A DNA stretch of 32,000 bases from Candidatus Heimdallarchaeota archaeon (GTDB taxonomy: Archaea; Asgardarchaeota; Heimdallarchaeia; Heimdallarchaeales; Kariarchaeaceae). Below are positions 14,846-25,499 of the stretch, in pieces. Every line of letters begins with the position of its first letter. Positions within the stretch are counted from its first letter, which is position 1. The stretch covers positions 360,001 to 392,000 of the forward strand of contig JASBSB010000006.1 in the NCBI GenBank assembly GCA_030149205.1, written 5' to 3'. The position numbers and the translations under genes were made by a program. The notes under the pieces are model-generated. The model ran no database searches. It was not told where the DNA came from and saw only the letters and a list, made by a program, of their open reading frames with translations.

Positions 14846-14930
14846 GCTTTCGTAGCTCAGCTGGTAGAGCGGTTGACTTGTAAGTTTCAAAGAAATCAAC
14901 AGGTCGTGGGTTCGAGTCCCGCCGGAAGCT
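14846..14930 (+). tRNA. tRNA-Thr(UGU) with a 12-nt intron at position 37/38 (14883-14894)
   Basis: Acceptor GCTTTCG/CGGAAGC with U73; D arm GCTC/GAGC; anticodon stem GTTGA/TCAAC with CT-TGT-A; T arm GTGGG-TTCGAGT-CCCGC. Intron AGTTTCAAAGAA; CCA not encoded. Confidence 0.95.
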
Positions 14931-17386: not shown

Positions 17387-17443
17387 TCAAATAATAATTT
17401 TGTGGAGGACTAAAAGAATTGTTGTGTATTGCACCTTAATTCT

Positions 17444-17579
17444 TCAAATCCAGGTTCGGGATGTTGCTGGGTGGAGCACCTGCTCTATGACCGTGATCAA
17501 GTCACAGCGTGACGCCTTTCCCATACGCTCGCGCAGAATAGTACAGGGCTTTCCGAGGCAGGGCTTAACTTTCTGGTAA
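17444..17579 (-). other. Bulge-helix-bulge processing motif formed by the two ends of the permuted 5S gene
   Basis: Leader UUA-CCAG-[AAA]-GUU (17579-17567) pairs with trailer AAC-CUGG-[AUU]-UGA (17456-17444): 3 bp / 3-nt bulge / 4 bp / 3-nt bulge / 3 bp. Confidence 0.85.
17448..17570 (-). rRNA. rrf: 5S rRNA gene, circularly permuted (3' half 17570-17502, linker CUUGA 17501-17497, 5' half 17496-17448)
   Basis: Minus strand: AGUUAAG-CCCUGCCUC-G-GAAAGCCCUGUAC-UAUUCUGC-GCGA-GCGUAUG-GGAAAGGCGUCAC-GCUGUGA-[CUUGA]-UCACGGU-CAUA-GAGCAGGU-GCUC-CACCCAG-CAACAUCCCGAAC-CUGG-AU. All five 5S helices, the 13-nt loop C, the loop E GUA/GAA motif, the helix IV bulged U and the GCGA tetraloop can be built. Confidence 0.92.
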
Positions 17580-17635
17580 GTTATTAAGCACCAATGAACT
17601 CGTAAGTTCGTTATAACATCCCAAGAAAGTTTCTC

Positions 17636-17642
17636 TATTTAA
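17636..17642 (-). promoter_or_regulatory. Candidate TATA box for the 5S precursor
   Basis: TTAAATA on the minus strand, about 26 nt upstream of a GAACU-UACG-AGUUC hairpin (17609-17596) at the start of the predicted leader; position only. Confidence 0.4.
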
Positions 17643-17926
17643 GAGTTAAACTAGATAACAGTTAAAACAAAATGACTTTGGGTCGTTCTGTGAGTTGAAT
17701 GATGATTCTTTGTTATCCGTAACAGATTTGAGGTTCAGAACAGTATTAACTGAACATTGGCACCCCCTGTTGGCGCCAATATGAGCCTTCTTTATCCCCT
17801 AACCAATACGTTTATGGTGAACTGGAGATACTTTGCTTAGCTCTGAATGGTTGTCCATGTCGAGAAAACTTGGTAAATTGAATATAATGATAGATAAAGT
17901 AATTAACTCTGTTTATAATCTTCGTT

Positions 17927-18427: not shown

Positions 18428-18476
18428 GCTGTATCTTAAGAGTTAGTTTAAATTTTAGATATGATTGACAACCTTA

Positions 18477-18956
18477 ATGGAAATAGGAAATCAATGGCCA
18501 CTGATAGTTTTACATAATGTCAATGCTTCAAGCAAATGTACAGAATTTGTCAGAATTGGGTCAGCATTTGGGTTCAGAACCTTAATAATCACACAGGCGC
18601 AGGGATCAGCTGCTCAGAATGGGATTCCAAGTGCACAAAAATTAGCTCTCAAGAATAAGCTAAATTTTTTGGCCTTATATTCAGTTGAAGATGTAATTGA
18701 GCTTTTTAACCCTGAGCAGGTTGTACTGATTGCGCCCCCTCCCTTTGGGAAAGAAAATCTCTCACAAGGTGTTATTGATGAGATCAAGGCTCAAAAAACA
18801 GTGGTGGTTTTCGGAGGAAATGACCCAGGTTTGTCAAGAAAGGATCTGGATTTAGGAAGAACGGTTCAGTTGTCTGTTGGGGATATTGGTTCGATTGCCA
18901 CTCTATCACTTACCTTAGCCCTTCTAAAACATGGAAATAATCTATTGCCTGAGTAA
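18477..18956 (+). CDS. DUF2122/COG4080 SPOUT (SpoU-like) RNA methyltransferase-family protein
   Basis: 'LHNVNASSK...GSAAQNGIPSAQKLALK...VVFGGNDPGLSRKDL' matches the archaeal family pattern; ATG at 18477 preferred over TTG at 18465. Confidence 0.72.
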   Translation: MEIGNQWPLIVLHNVNASSKCTEFVRIGSAFGFRTLIITQAQGSAAQNGIPSAQKLALKNKLNFLALYSVEDVIELFNPEQVVLIAPPPFGKENLSQGVIDEIKAQKTVVVFGGNDPGLSRKDLDLGRTVQLSVGDIGSIATLSLTLALLKHGNNLLPE

Positions 18957-22733: not shown

Positions 22734-25499
22734 ATGGCTTCACGAGGGGAACTTGTAGAATTTAAACCAGGACTGTTTGGATTGGGGGAACCAAATAATT
22801 TCGGAATCTTTGTTAAGAGTTCAAAGAGAAAGAAAGGTGTTTTCGTTCAACTCTATACCTTAAAAGGGATACGGGAGACCAAACAAAACAATTTGTATAA
22901 AGCAAAATTTGGTTATTTTGTACAATTAAAGGGAGGAAGTTTACCTCCTGAAAAGGAATTAAAGGAAAGATTATCTGAATGGATCAAGTTGGTTCAGACA
23001 GAGAGAGGAAATTCAGGAGCTGGTTCAGAACTTGGGGCATTAACGGAGAGGACATTGTGGGATAAACTTATCAGGATAAATCCAAACAGGTTTGAATACA
23101 CAACTGAAGAAATGACGAAAATTTGGTATGAATCTGATGAGGTCTCAAGAACAAAGGTTAGAAAGATTCAGGAAGCGTTAAAACCATGTACTGATGTGGG
23201 ATTTGGGCATTTTACCTTGATTAATTCAAAGGAACAAAAGTGGAGGTTACTATCTCAAGAAGAGAAGAAATCGATTGGAAAAGAAATTGCTTTGCTTGGG
23301 ACAATACGTAATAAGTTGTTTGTATTTGTTGAGGAGGCGGATGAGGAAAATCCCGAGGAGAAAATCACAGTTAGGAAGTCAGTACCTTGGAATGACATAT
23401 CATTTAATGATGACGAATTAAAACTCGTCTCCAAACTTCAAAAAATAATGAGCCATTTTATTGAGTTTGACAACTGGGGTACCTTCGGGTTAGCAGGAAC
23501 AAGGAAGAACACTATCGATGGATTTGATTTGCATAAATTAGTAGCTTATTTAGCCGAAGATTGGGTCAATGAAGGAAGAACAACTATTGCAGATTCTTTT
23601 GTAAAGTTTCTATTGAACACTGCCTTTATTGGACAGGATGAAGCTTTGGTTAAAATTTCGAAAAGGGCCGTAAATCTGGCACCTGATTTCTCTTGGGAGA
23701 CACCAGAAAACATAGAGGAGGCTGCCAGAAGATTCGAAGAACCAAAAGAAACCCCTGAGGTGTTCGAAGGCAGATTAGATCTTAGAAAGATGGAAGCTTA
23801 TACAATTGACCCTCCGACAGCAAAGGATTTTGATGATGCAGTGACAGTGCTTGAAACAGATAAAGGTTTCGAGCTTTGGGTGCACATTGCTGATGTAGCT
23901 CATTATGTGGAAAAATATGGACTTCTTGATAAGCATGCTCAGCAAAGGGCGACAAGTGTATATCTTCCAACAAAAGTACTTCCAATGTTGCCAACCCATC
24001 TTTCAGATAACTTATGCTCACTAAGAGACACCGCCCCCAGGTTAGCCATGTCTGTTAAAATACCATTTGATAAGTCTGGTAAACGGGAGGGAGATGAAGA
24101 GGTGTACAACACCGTAATTCAGGTTACAAAAAACCTATCATACGATTACGTAAATGATGCAATAAGTAAACAGGTTGAACCTTTTATAAGTTATCACAAG
24201 CTAGCTACTCTTATCAATAACAATCGTAGAAGTTTAAACCTTGAAACACCTGAAGTTAAACTCCATCTCGGTGAAAAGATGAGTATTGCAATTAAAACAT
24301 CTTCTGCCTCGACAAAGATGATTGAGACATTTATGGTCTCTGCTAACGAGGCAATTGGGAATATATGCCTAAGAGCAGAGGTACCTGCGATTTATAGGAT
24401 ACATCCTTTACCAGAAAGGGAAAAGATCATAAAGTTCAATGGACAACTCAAGGTTGTTGATTTACAATATGAGATTGATTATCCTGAGAAACTATTTGAA
24501 AACAACGAAGATATTCAAGAGGAGGAGGATCCAGAGGAAATCTTTAGAAAATTAAAAGAACAGGGTGGGTTTAGTGGAGGAGGTATATCTATATCCTTTG
24601 GTGGAGGTTCCTCCTTAGGGGATCAACTCAAACAGAAAGAAAAAACTGAAGAAGTGAAAGAGAGGGATATCGGCACACCACTTGCGAAAGGATTAGCCCA
24701 ACTCTCCCCAGAAAAACAGGAAGAAGTATTACGTCCTTTTATCAAAATTCTTTCAGAGGTCGAAAAAATGACTGATGAAGAGTTGCAGAGACTGGTATAT
24801 CTACTGGTACTCAGAGTATTCCCACAGGCTCTATACAGTGCTGGAAACATTGGACATTTTGGGCTTGGAAGTCTGAAATATATCCATTTCACCTCCCCAA
24901 TTCGTCGATATCCAGATATTATTGCCCATAGGATCTGTAAACAACTAATCTTGGAGAAGAATGGAACTGGAAAATCAAGAGGGGATGAGCTTGTCTATCA
25001 GGCAGATGAGATTGAAGAACTTGCTCTCCATTGTACCGATCAGTCAATTACAGCAACCAATCTTGAGCGGCAGATAGTTGCTGCAGGATATTCATTTTTG
25101 GCAAAGAATGAATCTTTTGAAAACAGAAATGGAATTGTTTCCTCGGTATTTGGTGGATATGTCAGTGTACTCCTCCCCAATGGAATAGAGGCCAGGATAC
25201 CAATTCGAAAGATGACAGATCGCCCAACATTCATAGATGATTTTGAAAGTATGTGTTTTGTTGGGTCCAGAGACAAATTTGACATGACCAAGGAGATTAC
25301 CCCAGAAAACTACAAGGAACTATTACAGGATGATAATGAGATAGTTGAAGTGTTAGCTCAACTGGGTGATAAAATAGCCATTAGCTTTGACACCATTGAT
25401 CATATCGAGGGAAATATTCTGGCATTACCAATCAGAATCACAAGGAAGGATCATGTTGTGCATGATTTTGAAGCTGAGAAAGAGACAGAAATAGTTTGA
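22734..25499 (+). CDS. rnr: RNase II/R (RNB-domain) 3'-5' exoribonuclease
   Basis: Catalytic DPPTAKDFDDA, VHIADV, ATSVY, MIETFM, HFGL, HFTSPIRRYPDIIAHR; S1-like C-terminus. Confidence 0.9.
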   Translation: MASRGELVEFKPGLFGLGEPNNFGIFVKSSKRKKGVFVQLYTLKGIRETKQNNLYKAKFGYFVQLKGGSLPPEKELKERLSEWIKLVQTERGNSGAGSELGALTERTLWDKLIRINPNRFEYTTEEMTKIWYESDEVSRTKVRKIQEALKPCTDVGFGHFTLINSKEQKWRLLSQEEKKSIGKEIALLGTIRNKLFVFVEEADEENPEEKITVRKSVPWNDISFNDDELKLVSKLQKIMSHFIEFDNWGTFGLAGTRKNTIDGFDLHKLVAYLAEDWVNEGRTTIADSFVKFLLNTAFIGQDEALVKISKRAVNLAPDFSWETPENIEEAARRFEEPKETPEVFEGRLDLRKMEAYTIDPPTAKDFDDAVTVLETDKGFELWVHIADVAHYVEKYGLLDKHAQQRATSVYLPTKVLPMLPTHLSDNLCSLRDTAPRLAMSVKIPFDKSGKREGDEEVYNTVIQVTKNLSYDYVNDAISKQVEPFISYHKLATLINNNRRSLNLETPEVKLHLGEKMSIAIKTSSASTKMIETFMVSANEAIGNICLRAEVPAIYRIHPLPEREKIIKFNGQLKVVDLQYEIDYPEKLFENNEDIQEEEDPEEIFRKLKEQGGFSGGGISISFGGGSSLGDQLKQKEKTEEVKERDIGTPLAKGLAQLSPEKQEEVLRPFIKILSEVEKMTDEELQRLVYLLVLRVFPQALYSAGNIGHFGLGSLKYIHFTSPIRRYPDIIAHRICKQLILEKNGTGKSRGDELVYQADEIEELALHCTDQSITATNLERQIVAAGYSFLAKNESFENRNGIVSSVFGGYVSVLLPNGIEARIPIRKMTDRPTFIDDFESMCFVGSRDKFDMTKEITPENYKELLQDDNEIVEVLAQLGDKIAISFDTIDHIEGNILALPIRITRKDHVVHDFEAEKETEIV

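What the first reader, a model, noticed from the sequence alone, without database searches (positions are those of the whole stretch)
17444..17579. Strict BHB at the permuted 5S ends predicts splicing into a 123-nt covalently closed circular 5S rRNA
Seen: leader UUA-CCAG-AAA-GUU and trailer AAC-CUGG-AUU-UGA form helix(3)-bulge(3)-helix(4)-bulge(3)-helix(3). The outer stem extends further with CUUAAU/AUUAAG and AUUG/CAAU. The leader CCAG copies the native helix III 5' strand, so the precursor fold and the mature fold are mutually exclusive, like a switch. Established: the archaeal splicing endonuclease EndA cuts after the second base of each bulge and RtcB ligates the ends; this restores permuted tRNAs and the Thermoproteus SRP RNA. 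Inference: cuts at 17571/17570 and 17448/17447 give a 123-nt circle with junction ...GAACCUGGAU^AGUUAAG..., already normal 5S size. Helix I is short (7 bp) and capped by a 5-nt loop, so the ribosome may contain a permanently circular 5S. Caveat: the junction gives a 3-nt AUA bulge instead of the usual 2-nt AA.
Basis: partly seen in the sequence, partly recalled or inferred. Interest (0 to 1): 0.9.

Follow-up and report, generated by a model that had tools for sequence, protein, structure and literature searches.

The report
Permuted 5S rRNA with splice-type ends
This Heimdall-group Asgard archaeon encodes its only 5S ribosomal RNA with the two halves in swapped order, flanked by a conserved, co-varying tRNA-intron-type cutting signal. 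The RNA is therefore probably cut out and joined into a 123-nt ring, which has not been described for the 5S rRNA of any cell.

Summary
On the minus strand, 17570-17448 is a circularly permuted 5S rRNA: 3' half, 5-nt cap, 5' half. It is the only 5S candidate in a 93.5%-complete genome. Leader and trailer form helix(3)-bulge(3)-helix(4)-bulge(3)-helix(3) with the polarity of an archaeal bulge-helix-bulge (BHB) motif.

In this locus the stem is weak, the weakest of 55 homologues. The case rests on comparison. In 11 sequences of the same family the 10 BHB pairs are 96% paired, against 73% in shuffles, and 6 pairs change on both sides. The leader's 4-nt strand tracks five different helix III sequences.

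The permuted gene is present in 79 of 83 genomes of the class. It is also present in many other Asgard families, and it never co-occurs with a canonical 5S. The genome encodes a two-subunit splicing endonuclease and RtcB.

No RNA-level evidence could be obtained, so cleavage, ligation and persistence of the ring remain inferred. The predicted 3-nt AUA bulge is specific to this family; in other lineages the same rule restores the canonical AA.

This scan had already noted the phenomenon on other DNA (66 notes, at least 58 genomes). No paper describing it was found.

The parts
17635..17643 (-). TATA-like box CUUAAAUAG, about 25-30 nt upstream of the presumed transcript start near 17613
   Evidence: Read from the sequence. 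A/T-rich boxes lie at similar distances in homologous loci. Inferred, not tested.
17596..17609 (-). Leader hairpin GAACU-UACG-AGUUC, outside the processing stem
   Evidence: Present in the MFE fold. Genus relatives keep a YACG-capped hairpin with a different stem: (AU)CAAC/GUUG(AU). Function unknown.
17577..17595 (-). Leader strand of the outer processing stem: AUUG 17595-17592, CUUAAU 17588-17583, UUA 17579-17577
   Evidence: Pairs with the trailer strand 17446-17428. This is the MFE of the leader+trailer mini-substrate.
17573..17576 (-). Leader strand CCAG of the 4-bp central BHB helix, a copy of the native helix III 5' strand
   Evidence: This strand tracks helix III in relatives (CCAG, CAAG, CGGG, CGGA, CGAG).
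17570..17572 (-). 5' bulge AAA; predicted EndA cut between 17571 and 17570
   Evidence: The BHB rule is to cut after the second bulge base (established knowledge). In the family the third base is invariant A and the second varies A/G.
17448..17570 (-). Predicted 123-nt excised and circularised 5S rRNA
   Evidence: Permuted covariance model R1: 116.9 bits, E 2.6e-26. The consensus fold gives helices I-V with 22 of 30 pairs compensatory.
17502..17570 (-). 5S 3' half: helix III 3' strand remainder GU, loop-C-proximal GUUAAG, helix II 3' strand, helices IV/V, loop E, helix I 3' strand
   Evidence: RF00001 aligns only this half, at 12.4 bits. Alignment A1 and its consensus fold.
17497..17501 (-). 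Cap CUUGA closing the 7-bp helix I where canonical 5S has its free ends
   Evidence: Relatives carry UUCG/UGCG/UACG/CUCG tetraloops, triloops or 5-6-nt loops here.
17448..17496 (-). 5S 5' half: helix I 5' strand, loop A CAUAG, helix II 5' strand, helix III 5' strand AC-CCAG (17472-17467), loop C, CUGG, plus the two retained bulge bases AU
17450..17453 (-). CUGG: trailer-side strand of the central BHB helix in the precursor and helix III 3' strand in the mature fold
   Evidence: The two pairings exclude each other.
17447..17449 (-). 3' bulge AUU; predicted EndA cut between 17448 and 17447
   Evidence: In all 11 family members the bulge is A-U-N with the third base variable.
17428..17446 (-). 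Trailer strand of the outer processing stem: UGA 17446-17444, AUUAAG 17440-17435, CAAU 17431-17428
   Evidence: The three pairs next to the bulge all co-vary in the family.
17412..17418 (-). U-rich run UUCUUUU, a likely archaeal terminator of the roughly 200-nt precursor
   Evidence: Read from the sequence. U-runs follow the trailer stem in most homologues. Inferred.

Best explanation
The locus is the organism's functional 5S rRNA gene in circularly permuted form. It is transcribed as a precursor of about 200 nt.

In the precursor the leader pairs with the trailer. A leader CCAG occupies the CUGG that belongs to helix III, and this creates a bulge-helix-bulge motif.

The two-subunit splicing endonuclease cuts after the second base of each 3-nt bulge (17571/17570 and 17448/17447). 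RtcB then joins the 2',3'-cyclic phosphate to the 5'-OH. CUGG is now free to pair with the native CCAG, and a normal 5S fold forms with a 3-nt AUA bulge in helix III.

The product is a 123-nt covalently closed ring. Helix I is sealed by a minimal hairpin cap with no spare sequence, so the ring most likely stays closed in the ribosome.

Shown here: the permuted gene, the BHB geometry, its covariation, the presence of the enzymes, and mutual exclusion with canonical 5S genes.

Inferred: cleavage, ligation and persistence of the ring.

My odds: cut at the BHB about 0.8; cut and ligated at least transiently about 0.7; ring is the mature ribosomal form about 0.45.
For: - Gene identity. A permuted covariance model scores 116.9 bits at 17444-17581(-) and finds a single hit in the genome. 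RF00001 finds no canonical 5S in this 93.5%-complete assembly.
- Fold. The consensus fold of 32 homologues gives helices I-V in permuted order, with 22 of 30 pairs compensatory.
- BHB in the family. In 11 family sequences the cells are 96.4% paired against 73% in shuffles (0/500). Six of 10 pairs change on both sides, and pairing is at most 55% when slid by one column.
- Central helix variants, each matching the native helix III: CCAG/CUGG, CAAG/CUUG, CGGG/CCCG, CGGA/UCCG, CGAG/CUCG.
- Leader-trailer duplexes. Real pairs average -22.9 kcal/mol; leaders paired with trailers of other lineages average -16.0.
- Wider sample. Of 78 distinct loci, 54 have a 4/4 central helix plus an outer helix of at least 4 bp starting right after a 3-nt trailer bulge.
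- Bulge conservation fits the cut rule. Retained bases are invariant (A-U in the trailer, third A in the leader); discarded bases vary.
- Other lineages. The same rule rebuilds exactly the N4-AA-GUUAAG junction of canonical Asgard 5S.
- Enzymes. A catalytic-type and a structural-type endonuclease subunit and RtcB are encoded.
- An intron-bearing tRNA-Thr in the same window shows the pathway is in use.
- Cap. It consists of UNCG-type tetraloops, triloops or 5-6-nt loops; only the structure is conserved.
- Distribution. 79 of 83 genomes of the class carry the permuted gene. In 151 genomes of the phylum, permuted and canonical genes never co-occur in a family.
Against: - There is no RNA-level evidence of any kind.
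- Here the stem next to the 3' bulge is only 3 bp including a G-U pair. The leader-trailer duplex is the weakest of 55 (-12 kcal/mol).
- The full-precursor MFE does not form the BHB.
- The predicted junction gives a 3-nt AUA bulge where canonical Asgard 5S has AA.
- In the sister family the leader carries a roughly 30-nt hairpin between the outer and central helices, so the 3' site there lies in a three-way junction. In Hodarchaeales-type loci the 5' bulge has 2 nt. The motif is therefore often relaxed.
- All 5S rRNAs characterised so far are linear. A 2026 survey states that 16S and 23S, but not 5S, are circularised (PMC12918454).
Confidence: 0.6

Rival explanations
1. Circular intermediate, linear product. 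The BHB is cut and ligated as above, but the ring is reopened in or near the helix I cap. The ribosome then holds an ordinary linear 5S with a short helix I, as with permuted tRNAs of Cyanidioschyzon and circular pre-16S/23S intermediates.
For: Known permuted tRNAs and most archaeal circular pre-rRNAs are reopened (PMC4267664; PMC12918454). Every characterised 5S is linear. In this family the cap is a 5-6-nt loop rather than a UNCG tetraloop.
Against: The linker is only 3-6 nt, so nothing is left to trim. Its sequence is not conserved across lineages; only a stable cap is (40 of about 73 are YNCG tetraloops). That argues against a shared nuclease site. No enzyme equivalent to RNase P or RNase Z is known for 5S helix I. 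Opening would leave a 7-bp helix I.
Confidence: 0.12
2. Linear permuted 5S. The precursor is trimmed at the BHB or by other nucleases, but the ends are never joined. The mature 5S has its termini at the helix III bulge and a hairpin-closed helix I.
For: Brown-algal mitochondrial 5S rRNAs are permuted in the final product and work with a hairpin in place of open helix I (PMC4267664). A nick at a bulge would leave helices II and III able to form. No junction sequence has been observed.
Against: The flanks specifically conserve a BHB, which is the substrate of an enzyme whose products RtcB ligates. By established knowledge, BHB-excised archaeal RNAs (introns, pre-rRNAs, Thermoproteus SRP RNA; PMC4731332) are found circularised. 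In most lineages the cut sites rebuild the exact canonical junction length. After a nick, only a 2-bp GU/AC helix would hold the new 5' end.
Confidence: 0.2
3. The leader-trailer pairing is an ordinary processing stem, or a chance match, that is not recognised by the splicing endonuclease. The 5S is matured by other nucleases.
For: In this locus the BHB is thermodynamically marginal. 5S maturation in methanogens uses an unidentified endonuclease at A/U-rich motifs (PMC10515664).
Against: A generic stem would not need two bulges 4 bp apart on opposite strands with the correct polarity. It would also not need a leader strand that follows helix III through at least seven sequence variants across the phylum.
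Confidence: 0.06

Closest known systems
Permuted, circular SRP RNA of Thermoproteus tenax and T. uzoniensis (Plagens et al. 2015, eLife, PMC4731332)
   Same: A permuted gene for an essential structured RNA. [quoted passage not shown] The ends are ligated, and the ring is the functional, stable form.
   Different: It is SRP RNA, not rRNA, and occurs in a few species rather than most of a phylum. There the circle was shown by RNA-seq and cleavage assays; here nothing is shown at the RNA level.
Circularly permuted tRNA genes of Cyanidioschyzon merolae (Soma et al. 2007, cited in PMC4267664)
   Same: Halves in swapped order, native ends joined by a short linker, a BHB at the new ends, and maturation through a circular RNA.
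   Different: The tRNA circle is reopened by RNase P and tRNase Z. No equivalent enzyme or spare linker exists here. That host is eukaryotic.
Permuted mitochondrial 5S rRNA of brown algae (Valach et al. 2014, PMC4267664)
   Same: A 5S rRNA in which helix I is replaced by a closed hairpin and the ends lie elsewhere.
   Different: It is organellar. The break is at the three-way junction, not the helix III bulge. It has no BHB, and the product stays linear and permuted.
Circular 23S rRNA in mature archaeal ribosomes and circular pre-16S/23S intermediates (PMC12918454; PMC7758197)
   Same: BHB in a leader-trailer stem, EndA cleavage, RtcB ligation, and in some lineages a ring that persists in the ribosome.
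   Different: Those genes are colinear, not permuted, so ligation there is not needed to create the fold. The same paper states that 5S is not processed this way.
Canonical 5S rRNA (Rfam RF00001) of other Asgard families
   Same: All helices and the loop A, loop C and loop E motifs are the same, and the junction sequence is N4-AA-GUUAAG.
   Different: The gene order is 5' half then 3' half with open helix I, scoring 45-85 bits to RF00001. This locus scores 12.4 bits.

Membership tests
5S rRNA (RF00001) | Match to the family covariance model at or above the gathering score (38 bits) in genomic order | tested here: not met
   12.4 bits, with only the 3' half aligned. No hit in the whole genome. 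This is expected for a permuted gene.
5S rRNA (RF00001) | Three-way junction with helices I-V and the conserved loop A (CAUAG), loop C (CCGAAC) and loop E (GUACU...GGGAA) motifs, supported by covariation | tested here: met
   The consensus fold of 32 permuted homologues recovers helices I, II, III and IV/V, with 22 of 30 pairs compensatory. The motifs are invariant in A1.
5S rRNA (RF00001) | Is the cell's 5S: no other copy, and universal in the clade | tested here: met
   Single hit in the genome. Present in 79 of 83 genomes of the class and 14 of 14 high-quality ones. Mutually exclusive with canonical 5S by family.
hBHBh' substrate of the archaeal splicing endonuclease | Two 3-nt bulges on opposite strands separated by exactly 4 bp, each bulge 3' of its central-helix strand | tested here: met
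   Leader UUA-CCAG-AAA-GUU and trailer AAC-CUGG-AUU-UGA. The polarity is the same as at the tRNA-Thr intron in this window.
hBHBh' substrate of the archaeal splicing endonuclease | Flanking helices h and h' of at least 2-3 bp | tested here: met
   Outer 3 bp (U-A, U-G, A-U), extended after a 3x3 loop by 6 bp and 4 bp. Inner GUU/AAC is 3 bp. This is the weakest stem of 55 homologues.
hBHBh' substrate of the archaeal splicing endonuclease | Conservation with compensatory changes in relatives | tested here: met
   96.4% paired, 6 of 10 pairs changed on both sides, 0 of 500 shuffles as good. 54 of 78 loci across the phylum keep a 4/4 central helix, a 3-nt bulge and an outer helix of at least 4 bp; 32 of them have strict geometry.
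hBHBh' substrate of the archaeal splicing endonuclease | Actually cleaved by the endonuclease at the second/third bulge base | not testable with these tools
   Needs an enzyme assay or end mapping.
Permuted RNA genes matured through circularisation (C. merolae tRNAs, Thermoproteus SRP RNA) | 3' part upstream of 5' part, with the native termini joined by a short linker | tested here: met
   3' half 17570-17502, cap 17501-17497, 5' half 17496-17448.
Permuted RNA genes matured through circularisation (C. merolae tRNAs, Thermoproteus SRP RNA) | Splicing endonuclease and RtcB ligase encoded by the host | tested here: met
   Two tRNA_int_endo proteins (216 and 206 aa) match the C-terminal and N-terminal units of the two-unit enzyme. 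RtcB scores 555 bits.
Permuted RNA genes matured through circularisation (C. merolae tRNAs, Thermoproteus SRP RNA) | Junction-spanning RNA reads, or RNase R-resistant RNA | not testable with these tools
   The junction is absent from the genome.
Circular rRNA retained in mature ribosomes (archaeal 23S) | The ring, not a reopened form, is the species in ribosomes | not testable with these tools
   Only indirect evidence: minimal, structurally conserved and sequence-variable caps.

The most novel reading that the evidence does not exclude
Heimdallarchaeia and most other Asgard lineages, including the closest known archaeal relatives of eukaryotes, build their ribosomes with a covalently closed circular 5S rRNA. 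It is made from a permuted gene by the tRNA-splicing machinery. The arrangement is ancient in the phylum, plausibly arising from a tandem duplication of a 5S gene with a BHB intron at the helix III bulge. It is also the reason 5S genes are reported missing from these genomes.
Probability: 0.42. Interest if true: 0.95.

Novelty: new variant of a known kind. Interest (0 to 1): 0.86.

Why it matters
5S rRNA is a universal ribosome component and is regarded as a linear RNA with a colinear gene. A 2026 survey of archaeal rRNA circularisation explicitly excludes it (PMC12918454).

A permuted gene that needs cut-and-join maturation would add 5S to the substrates of the tRNA-splicing machinery. It would also give the first circular 5S in any cell.

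It would explain why 5S genes 'could not be predicted' in the closed Heimdallarchaeum genomes (PMC8813620). I find two permuted copies in each of them.

It affects genome annotation and MAG quality standards, which ask for a 5S gene. It gives a clean synapomorphy-type character for Asgard phylogeny, because permuted and canonical families exclude each other.

It also raises the question of how the eukaryotic linear 5S relates to that of its archaeal relatives. The prediction is directly testable with one junction k-mer.

Tried and rejected
1. Rfam at gathering and at E-value thresholds finds only a 12-bit half match. This is uninformative for a permuted gene.

2. The MFE fold of the whole 206-nt precursor does not show the BHB and has z = -0.14. 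Thermodynamics alone cannot support or reject the motif here.

3. I scanned metagenome contigs for the ligated junction with CCGAACCTGR-N2-3-GTTAAG. All hits inspected are canonical bacterial 5S genes or chance matches in long DNA contigs, and none carries an Asgard junction. The pattern was too permissive and the collection is DNA, so this says nothing about the RNA.

4. Three pattern hits in contigs labelled as bacterial MAGs (L031, L045, L081) do not match the permuted model and are chance.

5. An apparent 100-nt insertion in a second tandem copy in a genus relative is a run of N from scaffolding.

6. I tested alternative registers that would give this family a canonical AA junction. The leader pairs 4 of 4 only in the register that yields AUA.

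7. Eight literature searches for a permuted or circular 5S in archaea or Asgard found nothing. The library lacks most subscription journals.

Identifying them as Odin-like and so on would rest on genome size only, so I do not claim it.

Full report
**What is in the window.**
Read on the minus strand, 17570-17448 contains the conserved elements of a 5S rRNA in swapped order. The order is:
- the GUUAAG segment that follows loop C;
- the helix II 3' strand;
- helices IV/V with GUACU...GGGAA;
- the helix I 3' strand GCUGUGA;
- a 5-nt cap CUUGA;
- the helix I 5' strand UCACGGU;
- loop A CAUAG;
- the helix II 5' strand;
- AC-CCAG of helix III;
- loop C ending in CCGAAC;
- CUGG.

Rfam's 5S model aligns only the 3' half, at 12.4 bits against a 38-bit threshold. 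It finds no 5S anywhere in the 3.3-Mb, 12-contig, 93.5%-complete genome.

I aligned 32 homologues (A1). RNAalifold returns helices I, II, III and IV/V in permuted order, and 22 of 30 pairs show compensatory changes. A covariance model built from that alignment (R1) scores 116.9 bits (E 2.6e-26) at 17444-17581(-). That is the only hit in the window and in the genome. So this is a real, single-copy, structurally constrained 5S gene in permuted form.

**The observation.**
- Leader: UUA (17579-77), CCAG (17576-73), AAA (17572-70), GUU (17569-67).
- Trailer: AAC (17456-54), CUGG (17453-50), AUU (17449-47), UGA (17446-44).

Each strand reads helix, then central helix, then bulge, then helix. That is the polarity of a genuine BHB. 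The intron of the tRNA-Thr(UGU) gene at 14846-14930 in this window shows the same polarity, with a 3' site of central helix-AA|A-anticodon stem.

The extensions CUUAAU/AUUAAG and AUUG/CAAU exist. The whole precursor does not fold into it and is no more stable than shuffles.

Among 55 distinct homologous loci this one has the weakest leader-trailer duplex: -12.0 kcal/mol against a mean of -22.9. The motif here is strict in geometry and marginal in stability. Taken alone it would be only suggestive.

**Comparative evidence.**
The same permuted order is colinear in the three other genomes of the genus, in other genera of the family, and in the sister families.

In an alignment of the 11 distinct sequences of the own family (A2) I tested 10 BHB pairs: three outer, four central, three inner. 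The results are:
- 96.4% of cells paired, against 73.0% in shuffles (0 of 500 as high);
- six pairs with changes on both sides;
- pairing of 55% or less when the partner is slid by one column.

The central helix occurs as CCAG/CUGG, CAAG/CUUG, CGGG/CCCG, CGGA/UCCG and CGAG/CUCG. In every case the leader strand equals the native helix III 5' strand. That is a three-way covariation. It is hard to explain unless the leader really pairs with the helix III 3' strand in the precursor.

The three outer pairs that abut the 3' bulge each appear as four different standard pair types. Across lineages, real leader-trailer duplexes are about 7 kcal/mol more stable than leaders combined with trailers of other lineages.

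Of 78 distinct loci from the phylum, 54 have a perfect 4-bp central helix followed by a 3-nt trailer bulge and an outer helix of at least 4 bp. Of those 54, 32 have no insertion on the leader strand.

**Where the cuts fall, and the AUA caveat.**
The established rule is to cut after the second bulge base. I compared its outcome in three groups of lineages.

1. Own family. The trailer bulge is always A-U-N with the third base variable. The leader bulge is A-R/U-A with the third base invariant. Retained bases are conserved and discarded ones vary, as the rule predicts. The ligated junction is N4-AU-A-GUU, a 3-nt bulge, in all members.

2. Sister family and several non-Heimdall families. The central helix is shifted by one base: C(A/G)GG/CCUG or CGUG/CACG.

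3. Hodarchaeales-type loci. The leader bulge has two bases.

In groups 2 and 3 the same rule rebuilds exactly the N4-AA-GUUAAG found in canonical Asgard 5S genes. It is not a sign that the model is wrong. No alternative register gives 4 of 4 pairs here.

**The enzymes.**
The genome encodes two divergent tRNA-intron-endonuclease proteins of 216 and 206 aa. One aligns to the C-terminal unit of the two-unit enzyme and the other to its N-terminal unit. That is a two-subunit arrangement.

By established knowledge (Tocchini-Valentini and colleagues, 2005; my recollection, not checked here), heteromeric enzymes of this kind accept relaxed BHB motifs. That would fit the relaxed forms seen in relatives: a roughly 30-nt hairpin inserted in the leader of the sister family, and 2-nt bulges elsewhere. 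RtcB is present at 555 bits.

**Ring, reopened ring, or nicked RNA.**
The linker that joins the native ends is 3-6 nt everywhere. Among about 73 distinct sequences the caps are UUCG in 20, UGCG in 12, UACG in 5 and CUCG in 3. Hodarchaeales-type genes have triloops, and the own family has 5-6-nt loops.

Only a stable cap is conserved, not a sequence, and there is no spacer to remove. This favours a helix I that stays closed.

If the BHB is cut, the products are the standard RtcB substrates. BHB-excised RNAs in archaea are known as circles (PMC4731332; PMC12918454). A persistent ring is therefore the most economical reading.

A reopened ring and an unligated, linear permuted 5S cannot be excluded. 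The second has a precedent in brown-algal mitochondria (PMC4267664).

My odds:

| Outcome | Odds |
|---|---|
| Cut at the BHB | 0.8 |
| Ligated at least transiently | 0.7 |
| Ring is the ribosomal form | 0.45 |

**Distribution.**
I ran a permutation-specific DNA pattern over one genome per prokaryotic species. It returned 62 loci. Fifty-nine are real permuted genes, in MAGs mostly labelled Heimdallarchaeota, Hodarchaeota or Kariarchaeota. Two copies each lie in the closed genomes of Ca. Heimdallarchaeum aukensis and Ca. H. endolithica.

R1 finds a full-length hit in 79 of 83 genomes of the class, and in 14 of 14 high-quality ones.

I then sampled 151 genomes of the phylum:
- 21 families carry the permuted gene with a strong, full-length match and no canonical 5S over threshold. 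One of them shows a spurious RF00001 hit to the 5' half of its permuted gene.
- Six families carry a canonical 5S. Their only matches to the permuted model are weak, at about 29-37 bits.
- One small family had no match to either model.

The permutation is therefore old and widespread in Asgard archaea.

**Origin.**
This part is inference. The break lies exactly at the helix III bulge, and the flanks form a BHB. Both are what a tandem duplication of a 5S gene with a BHB intron at that site would leave after loss of the outer halves. The same model has been proposed for permuted tRNA genes. A tandem pair of permuted copies exists in one genus relative.

**Prior knowledge.**
Eight full-text searches found no description of a permuted or circular 5S in archaea. 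The library does not cover most subscription journals.

Within this scan the phenomenon has been noted before on other DNA: 66 notes in at least 58 genomes, with follow-ups reaching the same reading. A later check priced the persistent-ring claim at 35/100. Those notes are not independent evidence. Everything cited above was recomputed here.

**What failed.**
There is thus still no RNA-level evidence.

**Verdict.**
- The BHB is functional by comparative criteria.
- The cut-and-join mechanism is well supported but unproven.
- The permanent ring is plausible but open.
- In kind, this is a new variant of known BHB-dependent maturation of permuted RNA genes, applied to a universal ribosomal RNA in the archaeal group closest to eukaryotes.

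Noticed in passing
window 14846-14930 (+): tRNA-Thr(UGU) gene with a 12-nt intron after position 37. The 3' splice site is central helix-AA|A-anticodon stem. The 5' side closes only into a tiny loop, so the motif is relaxed (bulge-helix-loop-like). ARAGORN misreads the anticodon because of the intron.
   Followed up: partly
window 17596-17609 (-): Leader hairpin GAACU-UACG-AGUUC upstream of the processing stem. Genus relatives keep a YACG-capped hairpin with a different stem. The sister family has a similar YGYG-capped hairpin, but placed between the outer and central helices. Function unknown.
   Followed up: partly
window 18661-18715 (+): Match to a C/D-box snoRNA family (SNORD36) at 31.4 bits against a 30-bit threshold, E 0.25. 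It lies inside the ORF 18465-18956 (DUF2122/SpoU-like). It may be a C/D sRNA or a chance hit.
   Followed up: no
window 22734-25499 (+): 921-aa protein with an RNB domain (RNase II/R family, E 3e-87), about 5 kb from the 5S gene. An exoribonuclease of this family would spare circular RNAs. No link was tested.
   Followed up: no
It is not linked to 16S or 23S.
   Followed up: partly
L002 1660-1897 (genus relative G001): A second permuted 5S copy lies about 165 nt downstream of the first. It is interrupted by a 100-N scaffold gap. In such a tandem pair the trailer of copy 1 and the leader of copy 2 would look like an intron inside a colinear 5S.
   Followed up: partly
L122 (G109) and L127 (G061): Two permuted 5S genes carry an extra insertion of about 30-40 nt inside loop C, after CCGAA. 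In L127 it is flanked by a repeated CAUUCCG. This may be a second intron.
   Followed up: no
L007, L008, L012 and other hits in G014 and G016: One family has 4-5 permuted 5S copies per MAG. Several begin a few bases from contig ends, which suggests a repeated unit that breaks assemblies. RF00001 gives a spurious 38-bit 'full-length' hit to the 5' half there.
   Followed up: partly
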